A stretch of 63,236 bases of DNA from a virus: the IMG/VR virus record IMGVR_UViG_3300045988_160579; one strand, written 5' to 3'. Made by a program: the position numbers and the translations under genes. Positions 8,592 through 62,843 of the stretch are shown here, in pieces; position 1 is the stretch's first letter; each line of letters starts with the position of its first letter. A model generated the notes under the pieces. The model saw nothing but the letters and a program-made list of their open reading frames with translations, searched no databases and had not been told where the DNA came from.

Positions 8592-8999
8592 TTATGACTC
8601 CGGCTTTGCGACTTGTTGCGATCCGTTAGCTTTTTGCCGTTGGAGATCTGCAACCGTTTTTTTGTACCAACCGGTACTTTGCTTACCGATGCTCTCTGCA
8701 AGCAGACAGATTTCGGCAGTTTGAGTCAGGCTGGTCAAATGTCGTTCTTCACACACTCTTAGCAGTAATTTCAATGCATCAAACTCACACAAAAACTTCA
8801 TCAGATAATCTGCACGATGCTCAAGGTTCATATCTGTATTTGCATAACGGATATATTCGCAACAATGAACGGCAAGCATCATCAACTCCGTACCAAATTC
8901 ATACCGGAACGCCTTGGGGAATTGTTGCCGGGCATCAATGATAAGGTTCAGAAGCTTATACATCGAATTTGATATAGGAAGGTCTTGTGTAAGTGCCAT
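8592..8999 (-). CDS. avd: Avd-like accessory variability determinant (four-helix-bundle protein)
   Basis: 135 aa. QFPKAFRYEFGTEL...IRYAN...YLMKFLCEFDALKLLLRVCEE...IGKQSTGWYKK fits the four-helix-bundle/Avd family. Located between the target gene and the TR. Confidence 0.75.
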   Translation of the reverse strand: MALTQDLPISNSMYKLLNLIIDARQQFPKAFRYEFGTELMMLAVHCCEYIRYANTDMNLEHRADYLMKFLCEFDALKLLLRVCEERHLTSLTQTAEICLLAESIGKQSTGWYKKTVADLQRQKANGSQQVAKPES

Positions 9000-43863: not shown

Positions 43864-44000
43864 ACAAAAAATTTAATAGACAAGTCACTTTTTCTTCTTT
43901 GCCCTCTGATTATTAATCTGTGACATACACATACGGCACCAGGAAGTCAACAAATGATATTCCTTACCTTTTCTCACCACTATACGATTGTAGAACCGGT

Positions 44001-44210
44001 TCAAGTAGAAGTAATTCCGCAATGGGTACATTTTTTCATTTCACGTCCTGAATCATCTATAATCCGATTACGCGGCTTACGACGAATTAGAGTACAACTT
44101 TTACACTTCTCATCAGTTTCGCGGTGCCGCCGGCAATGTGGTAAGGATTTTGCTCCACATTTAGCAAACACTTTACAATCTCTACGAGGTATTGATTGAC
44201 ACACATTCAT
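44001..44210 (-). CDS. small Cys-rich hypothetical protein
   Basis: 69 aa with several CxxC-like pairs. 4-nt overlap with the upstream gene. Confidence 0.4.
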   Translation of the reverse strand: MNVCQSIPRRDCKVFAKCGAKSLPHCRRHRETDEKCKSCTLIRRKPRNRIIDDSGREMKKCTHCGITST

Positions 44211-44671
44211 GGCTTCCTCGCATTCAAGAATTTATTTACTACACGAGAAAGTACATCCTCATTCTCCGGCATCAGCCATTCTTTTGCAACGTTCCAAGCA
44301 ATACTCATAGCAGGATTGAAGTTATCCTTCCTGACTGTGTGATGAGACAAACGTCCTTCAGTGGGCTTCAAACCCTTATCATGTAAGATACACAGTCCAT
44401 TCTCGAAAAAAGCACAATACCCCTTACCAGCAACGGGCTGAATCATCGGAATAGCAATATTAATAACCCCTAAGAATATACCAGCAGCCCAGTTCGTCAG
44501 CGCTAACCTGTCGGCATAACCTGCATCAATAATTCGTTCAATATCATCAGGAGTACCTAAACATGGCGTATGACATTGTTGTTTACAAACACTGCATGAG
44601 CATTGTACAGGTACACGACCTGAAGCCCTCATTACCCTTTGTAATGAGGTTTCTTTTGATAATTCTCTCAT
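44207..44671 (-). CDS. cysteine-cluster protein (YkgJ/CxxCxxCC-like)
   Basis: 154 aa. CSCSVCKQQCHTPC and GYCAFFENGLCILHDKGLKP. Confidence 0.4.
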   Translation of the reverse strand: MRELSKETSLQRVMRASGRVPVQCSCSVCKQQCHTPCLGTPDDIERIIDAGYADRLALTNWAAGIFLGVINIAIPMIQPVAGKGYCAFFENGLCILHDKGLKPTEGRLSHHTVRKDNFNPAMSIAWNVAKEWLMPENEDVLSRVVNKFLNARKP

Positions 44672-44699
44672 AGTAAATTATTTGAGATACTACAAATTA

Positions 44700-45347
44700 T
44701 TAAACATCGCCCCACAGCTTTACTGCAAGGTCATAATTTTTTTTAGCCTCTTTTACTGCTTTATTGGCATAAGCCATAGCGTATGTATGCTCGCGTCGGT
44801 ACTTACCGGACTTCAATCCTTCGTGATATTCTTTTGCTTGTTCCAACTTATGTTCGTAGAAATCTATACTTTCCGGCATGGACAAGTTTATCGTATTAGC
44901 CCTTTTTTCCCAATACTTCGCAACTCTTTCATGTTCGGCAGCCTTATCGCTAAACTCAACGCTTTTCCCCATATTGTTCCACGCATCATCTATCGCTTTT
45001 CTGTGTCGCTTCTCGCTATGATGTCCCACTTTGATAGGCTCACCTAGAGAAAGAAAATCCTTATCTTTATTGGACTTGTTGTAATATTCACAGCTTTTCT
45101 GTACAGCAGATGTAGCCCATTCATGACGACGTTCAGCTCTTTGTTTGGCCCACTCTTGCACATTAAAGCCATCAGCCCGTACGATTGAGTAGTAATAGAA
45201 TCCATCACGTTCGTAAATGAGGTTGAAAACAATACATTCATTTTCTTTTCCATACTTGGTGGTAACTTCAATAGTTTCACCTTTTTCGTGCTTCTCATCA
45301 CACTTTGCCAAAAATACATTTGGCGCAAATTTGTAATACGTGTTCAT
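44700..45347 (-). CDS. DUF3560-like protein
   Basis: 215 aa. GEPIKVGHHSEKRHRKAIDDAWNNMGKSVEFSDKAAEHERVAKYWEKRA. Confidence 0.5.
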   Translation of the reverse strand: MNTYYKFAPNVFLAKCDEKHEKGETIEVTTKYGKENECIVFNLIYERDGFYYYSIVRADGFNVQEWAKQRAERRHEWATSAVQKSCEYYNKSNKDKDFLSLGEPIKVGHHSEKRHRKAIDDAWNNMGKSVEFSDKAAEHERVAKYWEKRANTINLSMPESIDFYEHKLEQAKEYHEGLKSGKYRREHTYAMAYANKAVKEAKKNYDLAVKLWGDV

Positions 45348-45395
45348 TTTTTTAATTAAATTGGTTTGACTTATATGAAAAATGAGAAACCACAG

Positions 45396-45971
45396 CTACT
45401 TAGCCGTGGTTTCATCATTAAATAACTTTGGTTGACTGGGTTGAACCAAATCATCGAATAAACCAGGAACACGAGGTTGTAACGCCTTGTATTCTTCCTG
45501 AAAGAATTCTTCTTTGGTTCTCCCATGTTTTTTACCCTTTCGTGTATGTACATCGAAAGTGTAATCTGGAATAGGAATAGGATAACGCCTGACATCATTT
45601 ATCCACTTTTCTATATCAATATCCTTTCTATCATAGATGAAGTTTTGCAAATGATCCGCATCACGATTCTTTCTACATTCACAAAGGAGAATGACAGCTT
45701 TACTCACAAATATCCTCCCTTTGGGTTCAGTAGCAACCTTGTTTACCAGCTCATGTCCCTGCCATAATGCTTCTATCTCTTTCGTAATGATTCCAAAACA
45801 GTCTTCAGCACTAATGGTAAACAAACGCTTCCACACATAGTCGCGGTACCCACTCGCCCAAAGTTCCAATGCAAAAAAGCCGGCTACCCCGGTGTCGGCT
45901 CGTCTAATGGCTTTCTGCATTGCAGAACTCACCTCAAAGAAATCATATCCGCAAATTGTTCTAATAATCAT
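45396..45971 (-). CDS. hypothetical protein with MgsA C-terminal-like helical motif
   Basis: 191 aa. FFEVSSAMQKAIRRADTGVAGFFALELWASGY. Confidence 0.4.
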   Translation of the reverse strand: MIIRTICGYDFFEVSSAMQKAIRRADTGVAGFFALELWASGYRDYVWKRLFTISAEDCFGIITKEIEALWQGHELVNKVATEPKGRIFVSKAVILLCECRKNRDADHLQNFIYDRKDIDIEKWINDVRRYPIPIPDYTFDVHTRKGKKHGRTKEEFFQEEYKALQPRVPGLFDDLVQPSQPKLFNDETTAK

Positions 45972-46075
45972 AATTCTAATTTAATGGTTTGACTTTTAAT
46001 TGATTACATCAGTAAAATTAGCTAAAAAAGACGAATATGGCAAACAGAATGGACACCATTTAAGCGCCTTTTTTA
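45972..46075 (-). promoter_or_regulatory. repeated promoter/operator cassette, copy 2 (degenerate upstream half)
   Basis: aattctaatttaatGGTTTGACTTTTAAT..ATTACATCAGTAAA is identical or near-identical to copy 4. TTTG-N20-TAATTTTA. The AAAATGGCG repeats are degenerate. Confidence 0.5.
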
Positions 46076-46082
46076 CAGACTA

Positions 46083-46835
46083 TTAGAATTTGAATTTGCA
46101 TGATATATTATATTGAACGAGCTGCTTTGTTTTGTCTTTCCCATTAGTGGTTGCACTCTTTAGCAAAATACTATCACCAAAATTCTTTTTGATAAAGAGG
46201 ATAGATTTACGTTCCTCTTCCTGATTCCTTATAGAAGCAAGCCCGCCAGCATTTACAAAAGTGTTCTTTTGCTCAAAATTATACCGCAAATCGGTTAAAA
46301 CCTTACGCTCTTTGTACTTCATATAACAAGAAATCCAAAAATCTTCCTTCAAACGTATTTCCTCGTTCCACCAGGTGTTTTTGTTATAGATTACTCCATA
46401 GCTACAACCGGTTATCATTTTCGAAAGAGAAAGAAAAGCAGATTCATCATACATTACCGGCGATATCCGAGCGGTGAAGCCAAACAGATGAACATCCATC
46501 ATACTGGCCATTTCATATAATGACTGAATGATGTTAGTTATCTTATCTTTATCCTTTATCCGGCTAGGTTCTCCTTTTTCCGCATAAATAGGTTTACAGG
46601 CATGGACATCATCATCGAGCATGAAGAGCTCACCAAAATGTTTCGCCATCCAATTACGTTTAGGGATGAGGCCGATTACATCGTCCGGATGAGTAACTAT
46701 TTCACATTCCGGGTTAAACTGCTGGTACAAGTCAGCTTGACTTTCGGCAACGCAAATGATAGGATCGTTCACCAACTTTTTAGCGAACACCCGGTCATGG
46801 CGTTTATGACTTGGTATTACTATCTTGCAGGGCAT
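46083..46835 (-). CDS. hypothetical protein, possible GT-A-like glycosyltransferase
   Basis: 250 aa. KIVIPSHKRHDRV near the N-terminus and FMLDDDVH (DxD-like). Weak assignment. Confidence 0.35.
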   Translation of the reverse strand: MPCKIVIPSHKRHDRVFAKKLVNDPIICVAESQADLYQQFNPECEIVTHPDDVIGLIPKRNWMAKHFGELFMLDDDVHACKPIYAEKGEPSRIKDKDKITNIIQSLYEMASMMDVHLFGFTARISPVMYDESAFLSLSKMITGCSYGVIYNKNTWWNEEIRLKEDFWISCYMKYKERKVLTDLRYNFEQKNTFVNAGGLASIRNQEEERKSILFIKKNFGDSILLKSATTNGKDKTKQLVQYNISCKFKF

Positions 46836-47460
46836 GGCGAACGTCTTTTATATCAATTACATTGGATTTACTTATTTTCCCGGTCTTGTACGACTTCATG
46901 TGCTGCATATCCAGCCTTTCACGAAGCCAGTTGCTATCTACCTCATTACTTGATGTGATGATAAACAACTCATGTTTTTCGTCATACTTTGGAATGAGAG
47001 GATAAATGGCTGTATCATCCGTAATGGTATCGAAGCGCTCTTTAAATTCATCCTCTTTCTTCTCTGGGGCAAATTCGATACCCCAGTCTTGGAGTTCCGC
47101 CTTATTCCACTCGTTTTCCATAACGTCCAAATCATTCTCACCAAAATTGACATTATCTTTAGTGGCATATTCCCTCAACTTCTTAACGGGGGTATCAGGT
47201 GCCAGGATTTTACAGGATAGTTCTTTATAACCTAACTCCTTGCAAGCTCGCAAACGTAAATTACCACAAACAACAATATATCTGCCATCATTGTAGGGAA
47301 AAACTATAAGTTCTCGAAGCTCAAGCATCTCTGGCGAATCCTGAATGCTTTTCTTCATCGCTTCAAAGCGGTAATCACGAAAAAAACGTGGATTTTTCGG
47401 CAATCCCGTGAGCTGCCCCTTATTAAAATCAAGTAGGCAGACTTGAATAATCTCTGTCAT
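46804..47460 (-). CDS. ParB N-terminal domain (nuclease-like) protein
   Basis: 218 aa. IVVCGNLRLRACKELGYKE matches the GxRRxRA ParB box. Confidence 0.6.
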   Translation of the reverse strand: MTEIIQVCLLDFNKGQLTGLPKNPRFFRDYRFEAMKKSIQDSPEMLELRELIVFPYNDGRYIVVCGNLRLRACKELGYKELSCKILAPDTPVKKLREYATKDNVNFGENDLDVMENEWNKAELQDWGIEFAPEKKEDEFKERFDTITDDTAIYPLIPKYDEKHELFIITSSNEVDSNWLRERLDMQHMKSYKTGKISKSNVIDIKDVRHALQDSNTKS

Positions 47461-47520
47461 AACTAACTATATTAAAATCAACAACACAAAATCAACAACA
47501 CAAACAGTCAGTAACAACAC

Positions 47521-47814
47521 CTAATCATTTTTTCTATCATCGAACTCTATCTTATCTTTGATAAGCTGTTCAATGTCCTCACAACCAAATCTTTTTAAAT
47601 AGGCAACAAGGTAAATTATCATCTCGGCTGCCAATTCTTCATCTTCCGAATATTTAGGAAGATTATCACTCCTATATTTAGAAGCAATATCGAATTTTCT
47701 CCAAACAGCTTCAATTCTTATGCTAAACGCTTTTCTTGAGCTATGCTCATTCATCTTAAAGCGCTTCTTCATGATATTCAAGCATCTTTGGGCAAACCTA
47801 TTCAATGTTATCAT
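47521..47814 (-). CDS. small hypothetical protein, possibly MazG-like NTP pyrophosphohydrolase
   Basis: 97 aa. EELAAEMIIYLVAYLKRFGCEDIEQLIKDKIEF. Confidence 0.35.
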   Translation of the reverse strand: MITLNRFAQRCLNIMKKRFKMNEHSSRKAFSIRIEAVWRKFDIASKYRSDNLPKYSEDEELAAEMIIYLVAYLKRFGCEDIEQLIKDKIEFDDRKND

Positions 47815-47919
47815 ATCGATCGGGTTAAATTGTTAGACTATGAATAATCTCACATGATTCTTTTAGGCTGGTCCCTGATGCGAAACCAATAAACATATTC
47901 TTTATCTATCAGCATACTA

Positions 47920-48360
47920 TTATTTATTTTGAGGATCTGTTGTATCCAAATACTTCCTGTATTCCAATTCTGTTTTGGCAAGATTGATTACGGTATTAAC
48001 CCCTTGGAAAACTTGTTTTGCTTGGCTCACTTTACTAGGATCTTCTTTCACATCCTTAATTTGTTGAAGAACCAAATTCCTCAAATCTTGTAAAATGGTA
48101 GGGTTCACTGTAGACACCTTATTCAACCGTTCATTAGCCAACACGACAACTGTGTTTGTTATTGGCCGGAAACGATTCAATTTGGAAGCCAAATCAAACA
48201 TACTAAATACCAATACTTTGCCATTATTCAAGTATATTTCAACTTCGGTACCATCATCACCAGTACCGTCACAGTAATTGAGAATTACAACTTCTTCATT
48301 CTGATAAAGGAATGGTTTATTAACCATTTCTTTCAATCTATCTATTGCTCCATCAGTCAT
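47920..48360 (-). CDS. hypothetical protein (146 aa)
   Basis: ORF track. 4-nt overlap with the upstream HNH gene. Confidence 0.5.
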   Translation of the reverse strand: MTDGAIDRLKEMVNKPFLYQNEEVVILNYCDGTGDDGTEVEIYLNNGKVLVFSMFDLASKLNRFRPITNTVVVLANERLNKVSTVNPTILQDLRNLVLQQIKDVKEDPSKVSQAKQVFQGVNTVINLAKTELEYRKYLDTTDPQNK

Positions 48361-49121
48361 GATTCATTCTTTTTTGTTGCTTTATTAATTTGTCTATTCA
48401 AAGCTCCTTTTAGCTTGATTAGGTATTGAACATCTTCCGGATATCGGGCATACAAAGAATTCTCTTTTTTTAATTGTTCAGGACGACTAATCATGTAAAG
48501 GTTCTCAATGGAAACGTTTTGCCTGTTGCCATCCTTAAACTGAATATTATAACCAGGGGGGGATTCTCCATTATGCTCAATCCATACAAGCCGATGTTTA
48601 AGTTCAAAGACATTCGGTTCGGCAGTTTTCACTTCAATGTAACCGTCACGAGTTATGCGTTCATAACCGACTGGTTTATGATTTTTGGGGATATGTCCTT
48701 TCTTAAATCGAGTAGCTTTCGTTTTTGCCAATTGTTCCTCTGACATATATTCCGTTTGCTTACGTCCCTTGTTCATCGGTTGGTGGCCTTTGGGAAAGAA
48801 GCTTTTAGAAGCGCATTGAAATTTAAATTCTTTAGATTTAAAGAGCCGTAATTTAAATGCAATTCCATTTACAGCAGAATAAGTGGTACCTAATATCTGT
48901 GCTATTTCCTCATTAGTATGATTGGGATACAACTTTTTCAATTTATCAAGTCTCTCACTATTCCAAAACGAGATTCTCGGAGAGCGCCTAAGTTTTCGAA
49001 TCAAGGCCTTTGTTTTAACAGCACTAAGTGTTTTATCAAGACGCCTAGCAAGTTCTTTTAAATCAGCAGTCGGGTACTCACTGTCAAGTATAGCAAGTTG
49101 TTCGCCAGTCCACGTTTTCAT
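48357..49121 (-). CDS. HNH (HNH_3-type) homing-endonuclease-like protein with N-terminal HTH repeats
   Basis: 254 aa. LKHRLVWIEHNGESPPGYNIQFKDGNRQNVSIENLYMISR. Confidence 0.65.
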   Translation of the reverse strand: MKTWTGEQLAILDSEYPTADLKELARRLDKTLSAVKTKALIRKLRRSPRISFWNSERLDKLKKLYPNHTNEEIAQILGTTYSAVNGIAFKLRLFKSKEFKFQCASKSFFPKGHQPMNKGRKQTEYMSEEQLAKTKATRFKKGHIPKNHKPVGYERITRDGYIEVKTAEPNVFELKHRLVWIEHNGESPPGYNIQFKDGNRQNVSIENLYMISRPEQLKKENSLYARYPEDVQYLIKLKGALNRQINKATKKNES

Positions 49122-49148
49122 AAGTGCGTCAATAAAGAGAGGAAACCA

Positions 49149-50867
49149 CTAGGCTTCCTCTGTGTTATCGTTATTTAGCTCTTTCAGTCTTTCTTTGAGC
49201 TTCTTTTCTTTCTTATCATATGAATCCGCAAGTTTCTTAGAGAGCGCTTTGAAATCATCCGGATATTGTTCTGCAAAAAGGATTTTCTGACACTTTTGCA
49301 AATAGGAGTAGAAATTCACATTATTCGATGATAAGCATTCAGCAATAAAGGCTCTATACCATTGGTGTCGGTCAGCTTGGTTGTTTTTGACATAATTTAC
49401 AAAATCACTCTCACCATTCCATTTTTTCAAATTCAGTTTTTCAAGATAAGTACTGCTACAACCGCTAAGAACCAGCACATCAAAAACAAGTTGTTCATTT
49501 TCAGAGAATTCTTTTGTTCTCTGATAATATGTTTTCTCTTGCGCCCACTTACGCATTTCTTCAGCAGACTTCTCCTTGACTATATCCTTCGCTCTTTTTA
49601 ATTGGGCGTTTATTTTTTCCCTTTCTATCTCTTTTAGATCGGCAACGGCGGAAGTAGAGGAAGCCGTTTCTTTTCTAACATAATAGAAACTAACGTTAAA
49701 TTCGGGAGAATAATGTCCAAAAAATGAAAGACAACGATAAACTTCTCCATCTTCAAGCATTTTCAAAGTGCGTTCATCATCTTCTGAATACCAGCACTTA
49801 CATCTAAAGATTTCATCAGGATCAACTATTTCAAATCCAAGTTGTTTAACAGCTTCCAAAGTTTTTTCATAGAAAACCTTTCTATCTTCTCCCCAATATG
49901 TATCAGGACGTCTAGCGATAATTACTGTTTTTCCAAATGAAAGAGGTTCGCCAACTTTAACAAGATGTTCATATTCTAGTTGAATTTTCCGCGTCACATA
50001 AGCAATTTGTTTTTTCTCATAGCAAGCAGCATTGATACATCTAGCATCCTTACTATTCATTTCATAGAACAAACAACCATGATTACACGTATTATTCTCA
50101 CATTGAGAACATGATTTAATATCAGTATTTTCCCAATTATCGGAATCATCTTTAATCCAAGGTGCGTTACCAAGCTCCATGAAAGAATTACTCACAAATT
50201 CTCGAATCATAGCAGTAGTACATTGTTCTTCCTCCTCCTCATGAAACTCTTTTTGAGTATCTTCATCCAATTTAGAAAGAATCATAGCACCGGACAATGG
50301 TATATCTCCATTTCTTACCCGCTCTTTTAGTTCAGGAATAAGAGAATTCAATTTAATACGGTCAAATACAAACCGGGTAGACTTTCCTATTTTAAGAGCG
50401 ATATCTTCCAAAGTTCGTCCTTTTTCAGCCAACTGCGCAAAGGCAAAAGCTTCTTCGATGGGATCAACATCTTTTCTTTGAAGATTCTCGGTAATCATCG
50501 CTTCAAAAGCCTCATCATCTGTCATTTCTCTGACAATGCAGGAAATCGCTTGGAATTGTTCTGATTTCTTGCGATGTGCCTTGATTTTAGCAACATTCTC
50601 TTTATCTTCCTTCTCTTTCAATAGTGATACAGCACGGAAGCGGCGCTCACCACATACAATTTCATACGAACAGGGAATTGTTGTCACATCACCAGTCTCC
50701 AAGTTGGTCACATCCTCGGATTTGGCAACTCGAACAGTGATAGGCTGTAATAAGCCTTGTTTCTCAATATTACTTGCAAGCTCTTGAAGAGCTACTTCAT
50801 CAAAAGTCTTTCTCGGATTCAAAGGAGAAGGACTGATAAGGTCAATTCTAATGTTTTGTACTTCCAT
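49149..50867 (-). CDS. large ParB-family protein
   Basis: 572 aa. N-terminal IDLISPSPLNPRK...GLLQPITVR...VCGERRFRAV. Cys-rich middle region. Confidence 0.7.
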   Translation of the reverse strand: MEVQNIRIDLISPSPLNPRKTFDEVALQELASNIEKQGLLQPITVRVAKSEDVTNLETGDVTTIPCSYEIVCGERRFRAVSLLKEKEDKENVAKIKAHRKKSEQFQAISCIVREMTDDEAFEAMITENLQRKDVDPIEEAFAFAQLAEKGRTLEDIALKIGKSTRFVFDRIKLNSLIPELKERVRNGDIPLSGAMILSKLDEDTQKEFHEEEEEQCTTAMIREFVSNSFMELGNAPWIKDDSDNWENTDIKSCSQCENNTCNHGCLFYEMNSKDARCINAACYEKKQIAYVTRKIQLEYEHLVKVGEPLSFGKTVIIARRPDTYWGEDRKVFYEKTLEAVKQLGFEIVDPDEIFRCKCWYSEDDERTLKMLEDGEVYRCLSFFGHYSPEFNVSFYYVRKETASSTSAVADLKEIEREKINAQLKRAKDIVKEKSAEEMRKWAQEKTYYQRTKEFSENEQLVFDVLVLSGCSSTYLEKLNLKKWNGESDFVNYVKNNQADRHQWYRAFIAECLSSNNVNFYSYLQKCQKILFAEQYPDDFKALSKKLADSYDKKEKKLKERLKELNNDNTEEA

Positions 50868-56946: not shown

Positions 56947-57725
56947 TTTCTAGGAGGATACGTTTTCTGCATGTCAATAGTTATGTTTCTGAACTCCTTA
57001 TTATTGTGAAGTTCGGGATGTTCAGTCCAAACTCTCTCAAGCTCTTCGCGGCTTTTAACACCAGTCATTTGTTTAATTGCACGATCCAGGTCTACACCAG
57101 TATATACTTTGCCCGAAGCGTTTGAAGCAGAAACATTGGGAGCATATACTTTTTCCTTTGTATTACCATAAGCAAAACGAACGCGGTTTTTATTGTCCAC
57201 AATAACAAGTAAAATAATCTCCTTTTGCTCGTTATAACCAATCTCTTTTACACTGAATTTGGTGTATAGAGCAGGAGAACCTGTTTTGCTCTGATATATT
57301 TCATTTTTCTCAAGTGGAATCCAAATGAAAGGACCCGTATAAAGTTCACGCCCAATTCCCCAGTTAAATCCTGCACGTTTAAAGGCGTCCGAAGCCTGCC
57401 CTTTCTCTTTTTCTGTGCTAGATTCTGTCCCAACATCCTGTTTACTCACCCATTCCTTCTTTTCATTATCCCAAATGGACAACGTACAGAATAGATTCCC
57501 ATTAACGACATCATGGTGCCGTTTCCAGTTCATTTCTCCGAACACTTCATCAAGTATTCTCATGTCTACTCGAGCATCCTTGTATAATAGCAAGGAGCAG
57601 CCCGAACCGTCCGGTTTCATAGTACCAACCCTACATTCAATTTCAGAAGCTAGAAGCGGTCTGATAGAATTTTTCTTCTTCTCTTCATTCTGAACCGTTG
57701 ATACAGTGTTTTTTCTCGCTGTCAT
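56943..57725 (-). CDS. Rad52/Sak-like single-strand annealing protein
   Basis: 260 aa. MRILDEVFGEMNWKRHHD...GQASDAFKRAGFNWGIGRELY. Confidence 0.6.
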   Translation of the reverse strand: MTARKNTVSTVQNEEKKKNSIRPLLASEIECRVGTMKPDGSGCSLLLYKDARVDMRILDEVFGEMNWKRHHDVVNGNLFCTLSIWDNEKKEWVSKQDVGTESSTEKEKGQASDAFKRAGFNWGIGRELYTGPFIWIPLEKNEIYQSKTGSPALYTKFSVKEIGYNEQKEIILLVIVDNKNRVRFAYGNTKEKVYAPNVSASNASGKVYTGVDLDRAIKQMTGVKSREELERVWTEHPELHNNKEFRNITIDMQKTYPPRN

Positions 57726-57829
57726 AATTCTAATTTAATGGTTTGACTTTTAGCTCATTACATCAGTAAAGGTAATCGTTATTGACAAGTTTAGCAAACA
57801 GAAACTTCGCCATTTTAACGCCATTTTCA
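57726..57829 (-). promoter_or_regulatory. repeated promoter/operator cassette, copy 4
   Basis: AAAATGGCG x2 (57827-57819, 57816-57808), TTTG (57798-57795), N20, TACCTTTA (57774-57767), and the AAAAGTCAAACC box (57751-57740), 14 nt before the ATG. Confidence 0.55.
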
Positions 57830-57835
57830 GGTAGT

Positions 57836-57871
57836 AAAAACTGCCTGTACGATATTGTACAGGCAGAAAAA
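57836..57871 (-). terminator. strong terminator ending the tRNA-like RNA block
   Basis: ctgcctgtac (57841-57850) pairs with gtacaggcag (57857-57866), a 10-bp stem. The T-run on the minus strand is plus-strand aaaaa at 57836-57840. Confidence 0.7.
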
Positions 57872-57961
57872 TAAGAAAATGAATAATCCAATGTACCTTA
57901 TGGAACGGCTACGCTTTGAAGGGTGTACGGCTCCCTGATTTATACATAATGTAAATGCTAG

Positions 57962-58044
57962 TGGACGGAACCGGAGTCGAACCGGTCTCACGGAATATTG
58001 GTGCACCTCACCGCAGTTTCAACCAACGATATACATATCCGCCC
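57962..58044 (-). tRNA. tRNA-like RNA T1 (83 nt) without a canonical D or anticodon arm
   Basis: Acceptor GGGCGGA/TCCGTCC with G3-U70 and A73; T arm ACCGG-TTCGACT-CCGGT. The 49 nt in between contain GTTGGTT, but I found no 5-bp stem with a 7-nt loop. Confidence 0.4.
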
Positions 58045-58145
58045 GATTAATTAAAAAGGTGCACTATCTTCACAGACCATACACCCCAATCACAAACACA
58101 AAACAAAACTCATGAACTACTATAATTTAATTAGGATCAGAAGGG

Positions 58146-58212
58146 TGAATGGCGTGGGGATCGACCCCACATCACGCATATCTGCGTATGCTGCCAATTA
58201 CACCAGCCATCC
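58146..58212 (-). tRNA. tRNA-like RNA T2 (67 nt) with a tetraloop in place of the anticodon loop
   Basis: Acceptor GGATGGC/GCCATTC; D arm GTGT-AATTGGCA-GCAT; T arm GTGGG-GTCGATC-CCCAC. The anticodon position is occupied by ACGCA-GATA-TGCGT. Confidence 0.4.
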
Positions 58213-58439
58213 GTTTTAAGTGAACTATTCTCACGAACCATTCACCTAGAACACAAACACAAAATAAAACACGACATTAACTATTAAATAGCACTCTCAC
58301 GAGCTTCTTGCTTCCGGATAGCCGTTCAAAGCACACCGGAATAGTATAGAACAATTAAAACTCAAATAACAGGGGCTTTAACCCTACAGCGTCCTTTTCG
58401 CTGGCAACATTAGTTAAACATAAAAAGAAAAATTCTCTG

Positions 58440-58537
58440 TGAAGGAACCCGGACTCGAACCGGGATGATAGATTACCTATGTATGACTTTCTTCAATCTA
58501 TCTGCATACTTGCGTTTACCAATTCCGCCATTCCTTC
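58440..58537 (-). tRNA. class II (Leu-like) tRNA-like RNA T3 (98 nt) with a 19-nt anticodon loop
   Basis: Acceptor GAAGGAA/TTCCTTC; D arm TGGCGGAATTGGTAAACGC; variable arm ATAG-GTAAT-CTAT; T arm CCCGG-TTCGAGT-CCGGG. The GTATG/CATAC stem encloses CAGATAGATTGAAGAAAGT. Confidence 0.4.
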
Positions 58538-58629
58538 AGGTCGTAGCCAGACGCTTCCGGCTACATTGATTGTATATATAATGCAAATATATTTTCACCC
58601 TCACGGGTTACTTAACTCTGATTGAGTTG

Positions 58630-58700
58630 AGCCGGGAAACGGATTCGAACCGCTGACCTCATGTAGAAACATGCGCTCTGACCAACTGGGCTATCCCGGC
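58630..58700 (-). tRNA. tRNA-like RNA T4 (71 nt; Arg-UCU-like) with an anticodon arm 3 nt too short
   Basis: Acceptor GCCGGGA/TCCCGGC; D arm GCCC-AGTTGGTCA-GAGC; variable loop AGGTC; T arm AGCGG-TTCGAAT-CCGTT. The anticodon arm is only 14 nt (CATGT-TTCT-ACATG, or CATG-TTTCTA-CATG). Confidence 0.45.
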
Positions 58701-58762
58701 AGATGCCCGGCGAACCGGGCTAAATAAACATGACAAATACTAAAATTAAGCAATGCAGACCT

Positions 58763-58954
58763 TCACAGGCTATCTTTATTTTGTTTCCTATCTTCGTAGT
58801 ATCGAAAACAGATATAATTCACTGATACGACAGTCACCAATACAAAAGCAGCAATAAATTCTTTCTTGCTAACTTCAATGCTATCTATAAGATACAGTGT
58901 TGTCCATAAGGCAATGAACATCATGGCATACTGTATCACTTTAATCTTTTTCAT
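58763..58954 (-). CDS. small membrane protein (63 aa)
   Basis: Two hydrophobic helices. Followed by the gcccgg-cgaa-ccgggc hairpin (58704-58719). Confidence 0.4.
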   Translation of the reverse strand: MKKIKVIQYAMMFIALWTTLYLIDSIEVSKKEFIAAFVLVTVVSVNYICFRYYEDRKQNKDSL

Positions 58955-59208
58955 TTCTTCCGTTTTTTAGATTTAACTTTCCTTCCCGCACATCGGCAAT
59001 GAAGTAATACTTGAGCAGCATTACAATGCCACTTGCCGTTTTGGACATTAGTGGGCTTATCACTTTCAATCTTACCCGCTTCTATAAGATTCATCAATTT
59101 CTTTTCCCCACCCACATAATACGCAGACTTATCTTTTCCAAACGTTTCTGTAGAAAACAGACGGAGAATATTATCTAGCAATATTTCAGCCATTTCACCT
59201 CTGATCAT
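58951..59208 (-). CDS. hypothetical basic protein
   Basis: Track ORF extends to 59283; an internal start (MIRGEMAEILL) avoids overlap with the upstream ORF. Lys/Arg-rich tail. Confidence 0.4.
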   Translation of the reverse strand: MIRGEMAEILLDNILRLFSTETFGKDKSAYYVGGEKKLMNLIEAGKIESDKPTNVQNGKWHCNAAQVLLHCRCAGRKVKSKKRKK

Positions 59209-59225
59209 CTCAACAAGCAAGGTAG

Positions 59226-59456
59226 TTATGCAATTCTGGTTACTATAAACTGCATATTTTTTACATCTGACTTTGTTTTCCAAGCCATTCCTTCAGCTTT
59301 TTCTTTATAAAGCCGAGCATTCAATGTATTAGTTACAGACGGTTTCTGAACGATAGGAAATACTTCTATTGCACCAACATCCATACTCCGTAATACATCA
59401 ATTACGTTACGTCTCTGAATATCCTTTTCCATACAATCTAATTTTAAATTAAACAT
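59226..59456 (-). CDS. hypothetical protein (76 aa)
   Basis: ORF track. Starts 3 nt after the 3' end of the tRNA-shaped RNA T5. Confidence 0.4.
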   Translation of the reverse strand: MFNLKLDCMEKDIQRRNVIDVLRSMDVGAIEVFPIVQKPSVTNTLNARLYKEKAEGMAWKTKSDVKNMQFIVTRIA

Positions 59457-59458
59457 TG

Positions 59459-59592
59459 AAGCGATGAGCGGATTCGAACCGCCGACCTCTGCTTGTGGTG
59501 CTCTTCCGTTAAGCTAAGAGTATTTCTTGAGAGACTCGAACTCTCAACCATCCACCACACACAGCGCTCTAACCTGCCTGAGCTACATCACC
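59459..59592 (-). ncRNA. 134-nt tRNA-shaped RNA T5 with a 12-bp helix plus two hairpins replacing the anticodon loop
   Basis: GGTGATG-TA-GCTC-AGGCAGGTTA-GAGC-G-CTGTGTGTGGTG-[GATGG TTGAGAG-TTCGAGT-CTCTCAA GAAATA CTCTT-AGCTTAACGG-AAGAG]-CACCACAAGCAG-AGGTC-GGCGG-TTCGAAT-CCGCT-CATCGCT-T. Confidence 0.45.
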
Positions 59593-59866
59593 TTTATATA
59601 CATAAAGCAAATACCTCGATTTGCCGACAAACGTCTAACTGATTTAGTTTTACAACGATACGGCTTGACCATTAACCACAGCATTATATCGTTGAGAAGC
59701 CCGCCTACGTCAGTAATCCCTTTCGGCACGTGTCGGCTTCCAAAACACCATTTTACCAATATGTCAAAGAACTCTTCTCTGTTGTTCCCAGTCTCCCTTC
59801 AAGGGCAGGCTCAAAGACCGGACTGGGTACCGGATAACCGGCGGTTTGGTTTGACTTTAATGAGGG
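59593..59866 (-). ncRNA. ~270-nt structured non-coding leader upstream of T5
   Basis: No credible ORF. Multiple helices on the minus strand: CCCAGTC/GACTGGG, GAAGCC/GGCTTC, AACGATA/TATCGTT, GCAAAT/ATTTGC, GCCGACA/TGTCGGC. Starts with AAAGTCAAACC. Confidence 0.35.
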
Positions 59867-60103
59867 TTAGAGAATACTTTGGTTGTTCTTCAAAACTATG
59901 TCCATTAAGTTTCGTTGCGATTCAATAAATTTCTTCAAATCATCACATTGGGAAACTTTCTCTCTATAAAATCCACGTTCTGATTCTAAATCTCGTTTGA
60001 GTTTTTCATTTTCACCTCTCAAAGAGCTGATCAACGCGTCTCGTTCTTCAATCACAGCTTCATATTTGTCTCGCTGTATTTCTAGTTCGGTTCTTTTATC
60101 CAT
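59867..60103 (-). CDS. hypothetical coiled-coil protein (78 aa)
   Basis: ORF track; early leftward operon. Confidence 0.45.
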   Translation of the reverse strand: MDKRTELEIQRDKYEAVIEERDALISSLRGENEKLKRDLESERGFYREKVSQCDDLKKFIESQRNLMDIVLKNNQSIL

Positions 60104-60118
60104 TGTTGTATAATTTGA

Positions 60119-60412
60119 TTAATCTCCGACGTAATGTGCACCGTAATGAGTACTATTTGGGTTGTAGTAAGCGGAAGCGGGAATATTAAGGTTATTATAT
60201 TCCTTGCTAGGTGTATCTTTGGCAGTCTTGCTCATAGCTTCATGTCTTTCAGCTAAAAATTTATCAGTTCTTGATTTCACTGCTTCCGGTGAGAAACTTT
60301 CTTGGAGTTTTGCGAAGCTCCATGCAGATTTTAAACACTCTGAAAATGTTTTTCCACCCTTCTTGTAATTGCGGTGTGCAGACTTCATTATTTGTGATAA
60401 ATTGTAGCTCAT
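60119..60412 (-). CDS. first early (leftward) gene, hypothetical (97 aa)
   Basis: Divergent from the repressor gene across the 60413..60565 switch region. Confidence 0.5.
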   Translation of the reverse strand: MSYNLSQIMKSAHRNYKKGGKTFSECLKSAWSFAKLQESFSPEAVKSRTDKFLAERHEAMSKTAKDTPSKEYNNLNIPASAYYNPNSTHYGAHYVGD

Positions 60413-60484
60413 AATCGTTATTTTTTAATTGGTTTTATCAATCATTTTTTGTATGTTTGTATGATTGATTGATTTATGATGCAA

Positions 60485-60549
60485 ATATATCCTCAAATGT
60501 GGATATATAAAAATTAAAAACCTATTTTATATCACCATTTGTGGATATT
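60485..60549. promoter_or_regulatory. operator-like inverted repeats in the immunity switch region
   Basis: ATATATCC-N8-GGATATAT (60485-60508) and TATATCACC-N6-GGATAT (60526-60548). The TGTGGATAT half-site recurs at 60498 and 60540, 42 bp apart. Confidence 0.5.
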
Positions 60550-60565
60550 TAACTTTTGATTGATT

Positions 60566-60946
60566 ATGATAAACAGAATTAAAGAAGTAATAACCTATTC
60601 AGGGCTATCAGAGAGGGGATTTGCTATTAAGTGTGGATTAAAGCCCACAACTATTAATAATCAACTGATAGGAAAAAGAGAAATTAGCCTTGCAACAATA
60701 ATAGCAATTTCATCCTCATTTGAGGAAATTTCCGCTGAATGGTTGTTAAGAGGAACTGGTTCCATGCTCATTCAAAAAGAAGAAACAGAACCAGGAATGG
60801 ACAAATTGAAAAGTATTGTATATACCATAGCCAATTTGCAGGATGAAATCAATGAAAAGACAGTACTTACTCAACGCCTTTTGGAAGAAAACCAGAAATT
60901 AAAGGGTGAACTGGCTATGTTGAAGAACGAACGAAATATAGGATAA
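60566..60946 (+). CDS. HTH (XRE/CI-like) repressor with C-terminal leucine-zipper-like coiled coil
   Basis: Track ORF starts at TTG 60560; ATG is at 60566. IKEVITYSGLSERGFAIKCGLKPTTINNQLIGKREISLATIIAISSSF, then LLEENQKLKGELAMLKNE. Confidence 0.7.
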   Translation: MINRIKEVITYSGLSERGFAIKCGLKPTTINNQLIGKREISLATIIAISSSFEEISAEWLLRGTGSMLIQKEETEPGMDKLKSIVYTIANLQDEINEKTVLTQRLLEENQKLKGELAMLKNERNIG

Positions 60947-62498: not shown

Positions 62499-62843
62499 AT
62501 GGAACTAAAAGAATTTATAAAAGACACAGTTACTCAAATAGCAGATGCAGTAACAGAGTTAAATGGTGGAACATCAAAATATCCACTAACCATTAATCCT
62601 ATTGGTGATATAGGGAAACAGGATTCAAATTACATAGAGATAGCGTCAAAACATTGTTATATCACAAATATTGAATTTAATCTGTCATTGACAACATCTG
62701 ACAATAAAGGAAACAATACAAAAGTTGGTGTGTTTGCAAGCATTATAGGAGTAGGTGTATCTTCTAATGAAGATGCACAAAATGAATCTGTAAGCAGAAT
62801 AAAGTTCTCCTTACCCATGCTTTTACCAAACAAGGAAGTTTAA
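62499..62843 (+). CDS. small protein resembling trypsin-co-occurring domain 2 (Trypco2-like)
   Basis: 114 aa. LKEFIKDTVTQIADAVTEL...ITNIEFNLSLTT...KVGVFASIIGVGVSS...SRIKFSLPM. Confidence 0.4.
   Translation: MELKEFIKDTVTQIADAVTELNGGTSKYPLTINPIGDIGKQDSNYIEIASKHCYITNIEFNLSLTTSDNKGNNTKVGVFASIIGVGVSSNEDAQNESVSRIKFSLPMLLPNKEV

What the first reader, a model, noticed from the sequence alone, without database searches (positions are those of the whole stretch)
59459..59592. 134-nt tRNA-shaped RNA in which the anticodon loop is replaced by a 12-bp helix bearing two hairpins, one with a second T-loop
Two half-tRNA-like stretches at 59521..59592 and 59459..59520 each fail as a tRNA on their own, because their acceptor strands do not pair. 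Together they form one nested molecule.

The outer structure is acceptor GGTGATG/CATCGCT (7 pairs, two of them G-U), a perfect D arm (GCTC-AGGCAGGTTA-GAGC), variable loop AGGTC and T arm GGCGG-TTCGAAT-CCGCT. In place of the anticodon arm, CTGTGTGTGGTG pairs with CACCACAAGCAG (11 of 12 pairs). That helix encloses hairpin TTGAGAG-TTCGAGT-CTCTCAA, which is itself a T-arm look-alike, and hairpin CTCTT-AGCTTAACGG-AAGAG, which is D-arm-like.

This is not a tmRNA (too short, no ORF) and it is far too short for a group I intron. It may be a tRNA-like scaffold displaying a second tRNA-elbow mimic. It sits 3 nt upstream of the ATG of ORF 59226..59456.
Basis: partly seen in the sequence, partly recalled or inferred. 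Interest (0 to 1): 0.75.

Follow-up and report, generated by a model that had tools for sequence, protein, structure and literature searches.

The report
Two-elbow tRNA-like RNA, Bacteroides prophage
A Bacteroides prophage encodes a conserved 134-nt RNA that has a tRNA's acceptor, D and T arms but carries a second, acceptor-less tRNA-like core where the anticodon loop should be, so it cannot decode and most likely acts as a tRNA mimic.

Summary
Window 59459-59592 (- strand) matches Rfam tRNA end to end at 39.1 bits (cut-off 29), with 70 nt where the anticodon region should be. The acceptor stem, the T stem and the base of the long helix show compensatory changes.

The 66-nt insert (RNA 34-99) replaces the 7-nt anticodon loop. 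It carries a T arm followed by a D arm. This order resembles the tRNA-like domain of bacterial Y RNA-like YrlA, but the YrlA match is sub-threshold (21.7 bits, cut-off 69). There is no Ro-binding motif, no closed acceptor hairpin and no TROVE gene, so it is not a YrlA member.

It is not an intron-bearing tRNA. The window has five tRNA-like genes and none has an anticodon loop. Related Bacteroides prophages keep the same few tRNA bodies with either a 3-4-nt cap or unrelated 25-95-nt inserts.

Most likely these are processed, non-decoding tRNA mimics on a tRNA scaffold, possibly decoys for host tRNA-binding factors. That function is inferred, not shown. I found no published description.

The parts
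59459..59592 (-). Whole 134-nt tRNA-like RNA gene. RNA position p = 59593 - window coordinate. No CCA is encoded and the discriminator is U.
   Evidence: Rfam tRNA 39.1 bits, model positions 1-71 with a 70-nt insert. RNAalifold consensus structure. Pair counts.
59586..59592 (-). Acceptor stem, 5' strand (RNA 1-7, GGUGAUG).
   Evidence: Pairs with RNA 127-133. Six of 7 pairs show changes on both sides across 23 variants and 100% of cells pair.
59460..59466 (-). Acceptor stem, 3' strand (RNA 127-133, CAUCGCU). The discriminator is at 59459.
59566..59583 (-). Outer D arm (RNA 10-27, GCUC-AGGCAGGUUA-GAGC), preceded by U8 A9.
   Evidence: Aligned to the tRNA model D arm. 100% of cells pair.
59560..59564 (-). 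Remnant of the outer anticodon stem, 5' strand (RNA 29-33, CUGUG). It pairs with RNA 100-104 (59489-59493, AGCAG). The last position is an invariant G33.A100 mismatch that marks the boundary with the insert.
   Evidence: Pair 30-103 switches UA<->CG in 4 variants. Pair 32-101 is UG, UA or CG. G.A is present in 23 of 23.
59494..59559 (-). 66-nt module that replaces the 7-nt anticodon loop (RNA 34-99). It comprises a 7-bp helix UGUGGUG/CACCACA, a junction GAUGG(UU), the T' hairpin, a variable linker and the D' arm.
   Evidence: 57 of 68 columns 33-100 are invariant, against 28 of 66 columns of the outer body. Part of the module was fixed by the search patterns. In the pattern-free columns 33-37 and 68-100, 31 of 38 are invariant.
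59527..59547 (-). Inner T'-arm hairpin (RNA 46-66, UUGAGAG-UUCGAGU-CUCUCAA). The core 5-bp stem GAGAG/CUCUC has a G53'-C61' closing pair and a UUCGAGU T-loop.
   Evidence: One of only 5 strict T-arm motifs in the window. Aligned to the YrlA T arm. Only wobble-preserving changes are seen.
59500..59520 (-). Inner D'-arm region (RNA 73-93).
   Evidence: Aligned as a D arm by both the tRNA and the YrlA models. Both registers pair in 100% of cells without compensatory changes.
59467..59483 (-). Outer T arm (RNA 110-126, GGCGG-UUCGAAU-CCGCU). The variable loop AGGUC lies at 59484-59488.
   Evidence: Two pairs have compensatory changes. tRNA model alignment.
59608..59613 (-). Promoter-like TATTTG box, short by one base of the Bacteroides -7 consensus TAnnTTTG. 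It starts 21 nt upstream of the RNA 5' end and sits in a 16-nt element shared with the region upstream of the tRNA-like gene at 58440-58537.
   Evidence: The function is inferred from the known Bacteroides promoter consensus and was not tested.
58630..58700 (-). Second tRNA-like gene (71 nt). Its anticodon arm is CAUGU-UUCU-ACAUG, a capped stem with no 7-nt loop.
   Evidence: Rfam tRNA 54.6 bits. ARAGORN reports 'tRNA-???' with a 2-base anticodon.
58440..58537 (-). Third tRNA-like gene (98 nt). It has a tRNA-Leu-like D arm and A73, and 47 nt of non-canonical sequence lie between the D and T arms.
   Evidence: Rfam tRNA 40.8 bits. Scanner results.
58146..58212 (-). Fourth tRNA-like gene (67 nt). 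Its anticodon arm is ACGCA-GAUA-UGCGU, a tetraloop cap.
57962..58044 (-). Fifth tRNA-like gene (83 nt). The acceptor and T arm are intact and the central region is non-canonical.
57841..57866 (-). Strong intrinsic terminator (10-bp stem followed by a run of U) that closes the tRNA-like cluster ahead of the Erf/Rad52-like recombinase gene.

Best explanation
What it is (shown): a non-decoding tRNA-like RNA gene of a temperate Bacteroides phage. The outer part is a complete tRNA body: a 7-bp acceptor stem, a D arm, a 5-bp anticodon stem, a variable loop and a T arm. The 7-nt anticodon loop is replaced by a 66-nt module. That module extends the anticodon stem by 7 bp and ends in a second, circularly permuted tRNA core: a T arm, a short linker and then a D arm, with no acceptor stem. 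The RNA therefore has two tRNA-like halves joined end to end through one long helix.

How it most likely works (inferred):
1. It is transcribed from its own Bacteroides-type promoter.
2. Host RNase P and RNase Z trim it and the CCA-adding enzyme completes the 3' end, because those enzymes recognise only the acceptor/T-arm stack and the elbow.
3. The mature RNA is stable and tRNA-shaped but cannot read a codon. Most aminoacyl-tRNA synthetases need anticodon bases, so it is probably not charged.
4. It acts as a tRNA mimic. The body, and here a second elbow, bind host factors that recognise the top half or elbow of tRNA.

Its position in the early accessory region, the exchange of modules between near-identical phages, and the sister genes that are bare capped scaffolds all point to a decoy or sponge for tRNA-targeting host factors. 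Those could be defence nucleases, enzymes that modify the 3' end, or RNA surveillance and repair proteins. Removing the anticodon loop would keep such a decoy off the ribosome.

My confidence is about 0.85 for the identity and architecture, and about 0.35 for the decoy or mimic function.
For: Identity and structure:
- Full-length Rfam tRNA match with a 70-nt insert.
- RNAalifold independently gives the nested structure.
- 97.5% of cells pair, and 9 pairs have compensatory changes, in the acceptor stem, the T stem and the base of the helix. No shuffle of 500 reaches this.
- All elbow-forming nucleotides of the inner T' and D' loops are invariant.
- The inner hairpin is one of 5 strict T-arm motifs in the window, against 0.23 expected.
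- The module aligns with the T and D arms of YrlA.

Non-decoding:
- There is no 7-nt anticodon loop in this RNA or in the other four tRNA-like genes of the window.
- Nearly all of the 98 sequences my scanner returned from 193 related loci lack one. The clear exception is a tRNA-Arg(UCU) in L123, possibly a host gene.
- IMG/VR holds no canonical-anticodon tRNA with this body.

Modularity and selection:
- The same genomic slot holds the two-elbow RNA in 55 of 68 relatives and a capped-stem version in 12 of 68.
- The same module sits in at least 8 different acceptor/body sequences in 11 Bacteroides genome contigs, and it is always inside a tRNA body.
- The module is more conserved than the body.

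Context:
- The cluster lies between the repressor-like gene (60560-60946, +) and the Erf-like recombinase.
- Promoter-like boxes lie upstream of three of the five RNA genes and a terminator follows the last.
- The phage encodes no RNA-processing, CCA-adding, ligase, synthetase or TROVE protein, so host enzymes would have to act.
Against: - No expression, processing or binding data exist.
- The inner module has no compensatory changes. Its fold rests on conservation and motif content, and a 10-bp alternative pairing (RNA 44-53 with 72-81) is about as stable (-44.8 against -45.0 kcal/mol).
- The single-sequence fold is not better than shuffles (z -1.65).
- No candidate host target was identified, and no partner protein is consistently linked to the RNA.
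- The decoy idea is an argument from context and from analogy with phage tRNA genes that counter tRNA-cleaving defences. That analogy is background knowledge, not a result obtained here.
Confidence: 0.55

Rival explanations
1. It is a genuine Y RNA of the YrlA type fused into a tRNA. The conserved helix binds a host Ro60/Rsr protein, and the tRNA-like parts tether it to an effector such as PNPase or RtcB.
For: - The module has the same T-arm then D-arm order closed by a helix, as in YrlA.
- It aligns to the YrlA T and D arms at 21.7 bits.
- YrlA-like RNAs are common in phage contigs and also score below the Rfam cut-off, at 34-45 bits.
- The YrlA stem that corresponds to the anticodon stem is kinked (10.1101/312249). 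Here an invariant G.A mismatch sits in the helix.
Against: - There is no GNCGAAN0-1G motif, which is read directly from the sequence. The motif is defined in PMC4201824.
- There is no closed acceptor-like hairpin.
- The score is far below the cut-off of 69 bits.
- No TROVE domain occurs in any window ORF of 300 aa or more.
- Whether Bacteroides hosts encode Rsr could not be tested.
Confidence: 0.1
2. The tRNA-like elements are processing and stability signals, like plant mitochondrial t-elements or mascRNA. RNase P and RNase Z cleavage at them cuts the early transcript into units, and the inserts have no function of their own.
For: - Only the parts those enzymes need (acceptor stem, T arm, elbow) are common to all members.
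- Small ORFs lie between some of the elements.
Against: - Three of the five elements follow one another with no ORF between them and are then followed by a terminator.
- Three have their own promoter-like boxes.
- The 66-nt module is more conserved than the body and keeps all elbow nucleotides across 8 bodies. A neutral insert would not do that.
Confidence: 0.12
3. It is a tRNA gene interrupted by an intron in the anticodon loop, and splicing yields a decoding tRNA.
For: - The insert sits exactly at the anticodon loop.
- Related genes carry inserts of many lengths at the same place.
Against: - Removing the module leaves no U33 and no anticodon-loop residues. The helix is continuous, with no bulge-helix-bulge motif.
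- 66-70 nt is too short for a group I or group II intron, and no intron or ribozyme family matches.
- The insert-free alleles have 3-4-nt caps, not 7-nt loops.
- No canonical version of this body exists in IMG/VR.
Confidence: 0.03
4. It is a decaying tRNA pseudogene or a recombination by-product of tandem tRNA genes, with no function.
For: - A T arm followed by a D arm is what the junction of two tandem tRNA genes looks like. PMC4201824 gives this caution.
- One variant (L086 and L323) has lost the D' arm.
Against: - Pairing is maintained by compensatory changes.
- The module is nearly invariant in at least 8 bodies, in 11 contigs from at least 10 Bacteroides genomes and in more than 116 viral contigs.
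- The slot is filled in 67 of 68 relatives.
Confidence: 0.05
5. It is aminoacylated despite lacking an anticodon and donates an amino acid outside normal decoding, or it enters the ribosome as tmRNA does.
For: - Two variants (L314, L316) have G3.U70 with A73, the alanine identity set that tmRNA uses.
- A sister gene has a tRNA-Leu-like D arm and A73. From general knowledge, LeuRS does not read the anticodon.
Against: - G3.U70 is present in only 2 of 23 variants. The window copy has U3.G70.
- There is no tag ORF and no tmRNA call.
- The phage encodes no transferase or SmpB-like partner.
Confidence: 0.05

Closest known systems
YrlA, the bacterial Y RNA-like tRNA mimics (Rfam RF02553; PMC4201824; structure preprint 10.1101/312249)
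   Same: - It has a tRNA-like core built from a T arm followed by a D arm, closed by a helix that stands where the anticodon stem would be.
- It conserves the elbow nucleotides and the 'GUU' that precedes the T stem.
- It is non-decoding.
- The family also occurs in phages.
   Different: - There is no Ro60-binding GNCGAAN0-1G motif.
- There is no closed acceptor-like hairpin, only a 9-12-nt variable linker.
- There is no V arm.
- There is no neighbouring TROVE gene.
- The closing helix does not end in free 5' and 3' ends. It runs into a complete second tRNA body that has its own acceptor stem.
- The score is 21.7 bits against a cut-off of 69.
Canonical tRNA (Rfam RF00005)
   Same: The acceptor stem, D arm, anticodon stem, variable loop, T arm and tertiary-interaction nucleotides are all present. 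It matches full length above the cut-off.
   Different: There is no anticodon loop and no anticodon. A 66-nt structured module stands in its place. ARAGORN does not call it.
tmRNA tRNA-like domain
   Same: It is a tRNA top half used outside normal decoding, with the rest of the molecule inserted between the two halves of the tRNA-like part.
   Different: There is no tag reading frame and there are no pseudoknots. It has a full D stem. The G3.U70 alanine identity is absent from most variants. It is much shorter.
Engineered 'tRNA scaffold' for expressing recombinant RNA (Ponchon and Dardel 2007; cited from memory, not read here)
   Same: The design is the same: the tRNA body is kept, the anticodon stem is kept as a connector, and the loop is replaced by a cargo RNA so that the chimera is processed and stabilised like a tRNA.
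   Different: This is a natural gene family. The cargo here is itself tRNA-like, and sister genes are empty scaffolds with a 3-4-nt cap.
RNase P-processed phage immunity RNAs (P1/P7 C4, P4 CI; Rfam C4 family; cited from memory)
   Same: They are small phage RNAs with tRNA-like processing, encoded next to the immunity region.
   Different: Those RNAs act by antisense pairing to sites in the same operon. Here no complementarity longer than chance was found in the window, and no Rfam C4 match was reported in the evalue scan of 57500-60500.
Viral and cellular non-aminoacylated tRNA-like RNAs (murine gammaherpesvirus 68 vtRNAs/TMERs, mascRNA; cited from memory; PMC11693755 was seen only as a listed title and abstract)
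   Same: They are tRNA-shaped RNAs, matured by the tRNA-processing enzymes, that do not decode.
   Different: Those are eukaryotic systems. Their cargo is placed downstream of the tRNA-like unit, not inside the anticodon arm.

Membership tests
tRNA (RF00005) | Cloverleaf with a 7-bp acceptor stem, D arm, T arm and conserved tertiary nucleotides, scoring at or above the Rfam cut-off. | tested here: met
   39.1 bits against 29, model positions 1-71. Covariation in the acceptor and T stems.
tRNA (RF00005) | A 7-nt anticodon loop with U33 and a 3-base anticodon. | tested here: not met
   The loop is replaced by 66 nt of paired or structured sequence. ARAGORN makes no call.
YrlA / Y RNA-like (RF02553) | Score at or above the Rfam cut-off of 69 bits. 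| tested here: not met
   21.7 bits, E 0.23. Phage YrlA-like RNAs found here score 34-45 bits.
YrlA / Y RNA-like (RF02553) | T stem-loop followed by D stem-loop, closed by a helix, with the tRNA tertiary nucleotides. | tested here: met
   Alignment to the model's T and D arms. The elbow nucleotides are invariant.
YrlA / Y RNA-like (RF02553) | Acceptor-like stem-loop (AS) between the T and D arms. | tested here: not met
   Only a 9-12-nt linker of variable sequence is present. At most a 3-bp AGA/UCU pairing is possible.
YrlA / Y RNA-like (RF02553) | GNCGAAN0-1G motif in the 5' strand (the proposed Ro60/Rsr contact). | tested here: not met
   The motif is absent from the 134-nt sequence. It is defined in PMC4201824.
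YrlA / Y RNA-like (RF02553) | Encoded within about 4 kb of a Ro60/TROVE gene on the same strand. | tested here: not met
   No TROVE hit in any window ORF of 300 aa or more, nor in the ORFs near the RNA.
YrlA / Y RNA-like (RF02553) | Bound by Rsr in vivo. | not testable with these tools
   This needs immunoprecipitation. The presence of Rsr in the Bacteroides hosts was not checked.
tmRNA | tRNA-like domain plus a tag-peptide reading frame and pseudoknots. | tested here: not met
   ARAGORN finds no tmRNA in the window. No Rfam tmRNA match.
Intron-containing tRNA (group I, or archaeal bulge-helix-bulge type) | Exons that rejoin into a 7-nt anticodon loop, and an intron with a group I core or a bulge-helix-bulge motif. 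| tested here: not met
   No intron family match. The junction is a continuous helix without bulges. Insert-free alleles have 3-4-nt caps.
C4 / P4 CI-type antisense immunity RNA | Loops complementary to target sites in the same phage operon. | tested here: not met
   Outside the shared T-arm sequence, the longest complementary match in the window is 11 nt for this RNA and at most 13 nt for any of the five. That is the chance level for 63 kb on two strands.

The most novel reading that the evidence does not exclude
Temperate Bacteroides phages carry a natural 'tRNA scaffold' system. It is a cluster of promoter-driven, anticodon-less tRNA bodies whose anticodon loop is a cassette site for exchangeable RNA modules, which the phages use as RNA-based counter-defence or host-takeover effectors. 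The two-elbow RNA would be a bivalent tRNA mimic. It would either trap a host factor that binds tRNA elbows, or bridge two such factors, for example a tRNA-targeting defence nuclease or an Rsr/PNPase/RtcB-type surveillance complex. That would make it a new class of phage anti-immunity RNA.
Probability: 0.3. Interest if true: 0.85.

Novelty: new variant of a known kind. Interest (0 to 1): 0.7.

Why it matters
tRNA mimicry by non-coding RNAs is known from tmRNA, YrlA, viral tRNA-like structures and mascRNA. I know of no natural RNA that is a complete tRNA body with a second tRNA core grafted in place of its anticodon loop, and six full-text searches of the paper library found none.

It also matters that this RNA is one of a family. 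Common human-gut Bacteroides prophages carry up to seven anticodon-less tRNA-like genes each. These share a few bodies and differ in the cassette at the anticodon position.

If they are expressed and bind host tRNA-handling proteins, they would show three things:
- phages use the tRNA fold as a general carrier for small RNA effectors;
- phage 'tRNA genes' flagged as odd or pseudo by annotation tools can be a distinct functional class;
- there is a natural counterpart to the engineered tRNA scaffold.

The question is directly testable, because the RNA is present in cultured strains such as Bacteroides xylanisolvens XB1A.

Tried and rejected
- Antisense regulator. I searched both strands of the window for complementarity to each of the five tRNA-like RNAs. 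Nothing exceeded 13 nt apart from the shared T-arm sequence, which is the chance level.
- YrlA membership. It fails on score, motif, acceptor-like hairpin and gene neighbourhood.
- Intron. No family match, no bulge-helix-bulge motif, and no canonical insert-free allele.
- A linked protein partner. The flanking small ORFs (PHROGs 21219, 18744 and 26666, all of unknown function) are not consistently next to the RNA in other contexts.
- More divergent homologues, to obtain covariation in the inner module. An IMG/VR scan that allowed other T' stems gave only three chance hits. The genome scan gave 11 Bacteroides contigs, all with a nearly invariant module. The inner fold therefore cannot be tested by covariation with the data at hand.
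- Known RNA families for the other inserts. Only the tRNA bodies match Rfam.
- Cultured-phage relatives. Nothing similar at the DNA level in 50,697 phage records apart from tRNA fragments, and the terminase is at most 43% identical.
- Literature. Six full-text searches found no description of this RNA. Burroughs and Aravind 2016, on RNA repair systems and tRNA-like RNAs, could not be retrieved.
- My quick D-arm regular expression missed the inner D' arm because of greedy matching. I do not use that count.
Full report
THE OBSERVATION. Read on the minus strand, window 59459-59592 is GGUGAUGUAGCUCAGGCAGGUUAGAGCGCUGUGUGUGGUGGAUGGUUGAGAGUUCGAGUCUCUCAAGAAAUACUCUUAGCUUAACGGAAGAGCACCACAAGCAGAGGUCGGCGGUUCGAAUCCGCUCAUCGCUU. 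Rfam's tRNA model matches the whole interval, model positions 1-71, at 39.1 bits (cut-off 29). It places 70 nt where about 11 positions of the anticodon region belong. ARAGORN calls no tRNA and no tmRNA there. The single-sequence minimum-free-energy fold keeps the acceptor stem, the T arm and the long helix, but it is no better than shuffles (z -1.65). Thermodynamics alone therefore proves nothing.

COMPARATIVE TEST. The element is very common.
- An exact 23-nt pattern from the inner hairpin hit more than 116 IMG/VR contigs.
- A degenerate pattern hit 11 contigs of GTDB representative genomes, all Bacteroides: xylanisolvens XB1A, congonensis, acidifaciens, faecichinchillae, bouchesdurhonensis and several unnamed species.

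I collected 27 distinct versions and aligned 23 full-length ones. The alignment has 134 columns, which equal the RNA positions. Pair counts on that structure:
- 97.5% of cells form standard pairs, against 40-60% when the 3' partners are slid by 1-3 columns.
- Nine pairs change on both sides, and 0 of 500 shuffles reach that.
- The compensatory changes lie in the acceptor stem (6 of 7 pairs), the outer T stem (2 pairs) and the base of the long helix (30-103 switches UA to CG; 32-101 is UG, UA or CG).

From G33 inward the RNA is almost invariant. The G33.A100 mismatch is present in 23 of 23 variants, the next seven pairs never vary, and the two inner hairpins show only wobble-preserving changes. 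The outer tRNA and the helix base are therefore supported by covariation. The inner part is supported by conservation only.

WHAT THE INSERT IS. The conservation boundary shows the anatomy. RNA 29-33 with 100-104 is an ordinary 5-bp anticodon stem whose last position is G.A. The 7-nt loop is replaced by a 66-nt module (RNA 34-99). The module consists of:
- a 7-bp helix, UGUGGUG/CACCACA;
- a junction, GAUGG(UU);
- a T arm, GAGAG-UUCGAGU-CUCUC, extendable to 7 bp;
- a variable linker of 9-12 nt;
- the sequence U-A-GCUU-AACGGAA-GAGC, which both the tRNA and the YrlA covariance models align as a D arm.

Every nucleotide that builds a tRNA elbow is present and invariant: U8', A14', A15' with U48', G18'G19', A21', U54'U55'C56', A58', and G53'-C61'. 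A strict T-arm motif occurs only five times in the whole 63-kb window on both strands. All five are in this cluster, including this inner hairpin, and shuffles give 0.23.

A third pairing (44-53/72-81) is about as stable. These cannot be separated by computation.

RELATION TO YrlA. A T arm followed by a D arm and closed by a helix is the architecture of the tRNA-like domain of bacterial Y RNA-like YrlA (PMC4201824; structure preprint 10.1101/312249). The module gives a sub-threshold YrlA match: 21.7 bits against a cut-off of 69, E 0.23 for 3 kb across 4227 families. A pattern scan shows that YrlA-like RNAs are abundant in phage contigs. Those have an anticodon-like V arm, a 'GGUU' junction, a T arm, a closed acceptor hairpin and a D arm, and they score 34-45 bits.

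This RNA fails the family's other defining features. It has no GNCGAAN0-1G motif and no acceptor-like hairpin. No TROVE/Ro60 gene is found among all window ORFs of 300 aa or more or among the neighbouring ORFs. I therefore describe it as YrlA-like in design, not as a YrlA member. What is new is that the closing helix does not end in free termini. It continues into a complete tRNA body with its own acceptor stem.

IT IS ONE OF A FAMILY. A simple scanner (T arm plus 7-bp acceptor complementarity) finds five tRNA-like genes on the minus strand of the window:
- 59459-59592 (134 nt);
- 58630-58700 (71 nt);
- 58440-58537 (98 nt);
- 58146-58212 (67 nt);
- 57962-58044 (83 nt).

None has a 7-nt anticodon loop. 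Two have a 5-bp stem capped by four nucleotides (CAUGU-UUCU-ACAUG and ACGCA-GAUA-UGCGU). The others carry non-canonical central regions.

Across 193 related loci the scanner returned 98 distinct sequences. Most are tRNA-like genes built on a few bodies and a few are spurious. Apart from the tRNA bodies, none of the inserts matches an Rfam family.

At the very slot of the finding, with the same upstream and downstream sequence, some near-identical phages carry a 71-nt capped-stem version with the same body. Of 68 relatives retrieved through the recombinase protein, 55 have the two-elbow RNA, 12 have the capped version and 1 has neither.

The two-elbow module itself sits in at least eight different bodies. 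The acceptor 5' strands are GGUGAUG, AGCGAUG, AGUGAUG, GGGAAUG, GGGAGUG, GGGAGCG, GCCUGAG and GGAGAUG. The module is more conserved than those bodies. No canonical-anticodon tRNA with this body exists in IMG/VR. This excludes an intron-bearing decoding tRNA and a decaying pseudogene. It shows that the anticodon position behaves as a cassette site.

CONTEXT. The window is a temperate Bacteroides phage. It encodes:
- a Bacteroidota-type integrase, a large terminase, a portal, a capsid protein and a tape-measure protein;
- SSB, NinB-like and NinG-like proteins, and an Erf/Rad52-like recombinase;
- a repressor-like HTH protein at 60560-60946 on the plus strand.

There is no close cultured relative. 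The RNA cluster lies in the leftward unit between the repressor gene and the recombinase gene.

TATTTG/TAnnTTTG boxes stand 21 nt upstream of the finding's 5' end, 39 nt upstream of the second RNA gene and 54 nt upstream of the third. They resemble the Bacteroides -7 promoter element, which I know from the literature and did not test here. The same box precedes the first ORF of the unit. A strong terminator (57866-57841) follows the fifth RNA gene. Three of the RNA genes are consecutive with no ORF between them.

The ATG 3 nt downstream of the finding is not the real start. PHROG 21219 aligns from residue 9 of that ORF, and in relative L027 the first ATG runs into a stop after three codons. 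The small flanking ORFs are not consistently linked to the RNA elsewhere. The phage encodes no RNA ligase, CCA-adding enzyme, synthetase, nuclease of obvious RNA function or TROVE protein.

MECHANISM.

Shown:
- a conserved, structurally constrained tRNA body without an anticodon loop;
- a conserved second T/D core in the loop's place;
- exchange of that core for a bare cap between near-identical phages.

Inferred from what is known about tRNA-processing enzymes: RNase P, RNase Z and the CCA-adding enzyme recognise the acceptor/T-arm stack and the elbow and do not need the anticodon arm. The RNA should therefore mature and persist like a tRNA. Because it has no anticodon, it cannot decode, and most synthetases would not charge it.

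Inferred from context: this is an early accessory region next to the immunity switch, the cassette content differs between near-identical phages, and bare scaffolds exist. I therefore think these RNAs are tRNA mimics that occupy host factors which bind the top half or elbow of tRNA. The two-elbow version would offer two such sites about one long helix apart. A decoy for tRNA-targeting defence or surveillance proteins is the most economical reading, but it is untested. I put about 0.35 on it, against about 0.85 on the structural identity.

RIVALS. These are a true Rsr-binding Y RNA, a processing or punctuation signal, an intron-bearing tRNA, a pseudogene and an aminoacylated non-decoding donor. 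Each is listed with its evidence in the Rival explanations section. Only 2 of 23 variants have the G3.U70/A73 alanine identity, so tmRNA-like charging is not a family trait.

NOVELTY. Six full-text searches found no description of this RNA or of the family. tRNA mimicry is a known kind. A tRNA body carrying a permuted second tRNA core in its anticodon loop, within a modular family of anticodon-less tRNA-like genes, is a new variant of it.

Noticed in passing
window 58630-58700, 58440-58537, 58146-58212 and 57962-58044 (- strand): There are four more tRNA-like genes with intact acceptor and T arms and no 7-nt anticodon loop. Two are stems capped by 4 nt. ARAGORN calls one of them 'tRNA-???' with a 2-base anticodon. 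The third has a tRNA-Leu-like D arm and A73.
   Followed up: partly
related loci, e.g. L047:4424-4582, L105:2700-2826, L073:5750-5898, L317:2322-4287, L316:920-1083: The same tRNA bodies in related Bacteroides prophages carry unrelated inserts at the anticodon position, giving total lengths of 80-164 nt. One 149-nt version contains two further T-loop-like motifs. L317 has six such genes in a row. None of the inserts matches Rfam.
   Followed up: partly
IMG/VR loci L327, L333, L359, L332, L334, L340, L326, L365: Unrelated phages carry tRNA-like genes in which the D arm is followed after only about 12 nt by the T arm. They have no anticodon arm at all, yet their acceptor strands are complementary. 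Anticodon-less tRNA-like genes may be widespread in phages.
   Followed up: no
IMG/VR loci L200, L210, L211, L277, L290 and others: Many phage contigs carry YrlA-like RNAs whose 'V' arm looks like a normal anticodon stem-loop (7-nt loops of the form CUNNNAA). They are laid out like circularly permuted tRNAs closed by a long stem. They score 34-45 bits, below the Rfam YrlA cut-off of 69.
   Followed up: partly
window 58220-58270 and 58059-58109: A 51-nt repeat (78% identical) lies just upstream of the fourth and fifth tRNA-like genes. The copy upstream of the fourth gene contains a 7-mer, GAAUGGU, that could pair with that gene's acceptor 3' strand in place of the real 5' strand.
   Followed up: no
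window 57841-57956 (- strand): A third copy of the 16-nt promoter-like element (ATTTACATTATGTATA) lies just downstream of the fifth tRNA-like gene. It is followed by about 75 nt and then by the strong terminator, so this may be a further small RNA gene. It includes GCCGTACACCCTTC, which resembles the 3' end of the fourth tRNA-like gene.
   Followed up: no
window 7156-8577, 8592-8999, 9146-9994 and 10772-16945: A reverse transcriptase of the type found in diversity-generating retroelements lies next to an Lcl_C-domain protein. Nearby is a 2057-aa ORF with no Pfam match whose G+C content (about 0.50) is far above the phage background (about 0.38).
   Followed up: no
window 43150-50867 (- strand): This is a likely DNA-modification block. 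It encodes a TET-associated glycosyltransferase (46083-46835), two ParB_N-domain proteins (49149-50867 and 46804-47460), a PAPS-reductase-like protein (43150-43863), an HNH endonuclease (48357-49121) and a DUF3560 protein.
   Followed up: no
L047:325-441 and L072:285-389, corresponding by offset to window about 62620-62736 (+ strand): In relatives there is a sub-threshold match to the Bacteroides sRNA BTnc049 (RF04179): 55.5 and 53.8 bits against a cut-off of 81.9. The equivalent window position overlaps ORF 62499-62843.
   Followed up: no
window 59614-59866 (- strand): A non-coding stretch of about 250 nt with higher G+C lies between the 78-aa ORF and the promoter-like box of the finding. Its fold is not significant (z -1.39) and it has no Rfam match.
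   Followed up: partly
window 2395-3507 (- strand): An AbiC-like abortive-infection protein (Pfam putAbiC) is encoded next to the integrase. It is a likely prophage-borne defence gene.
   Followed up: no
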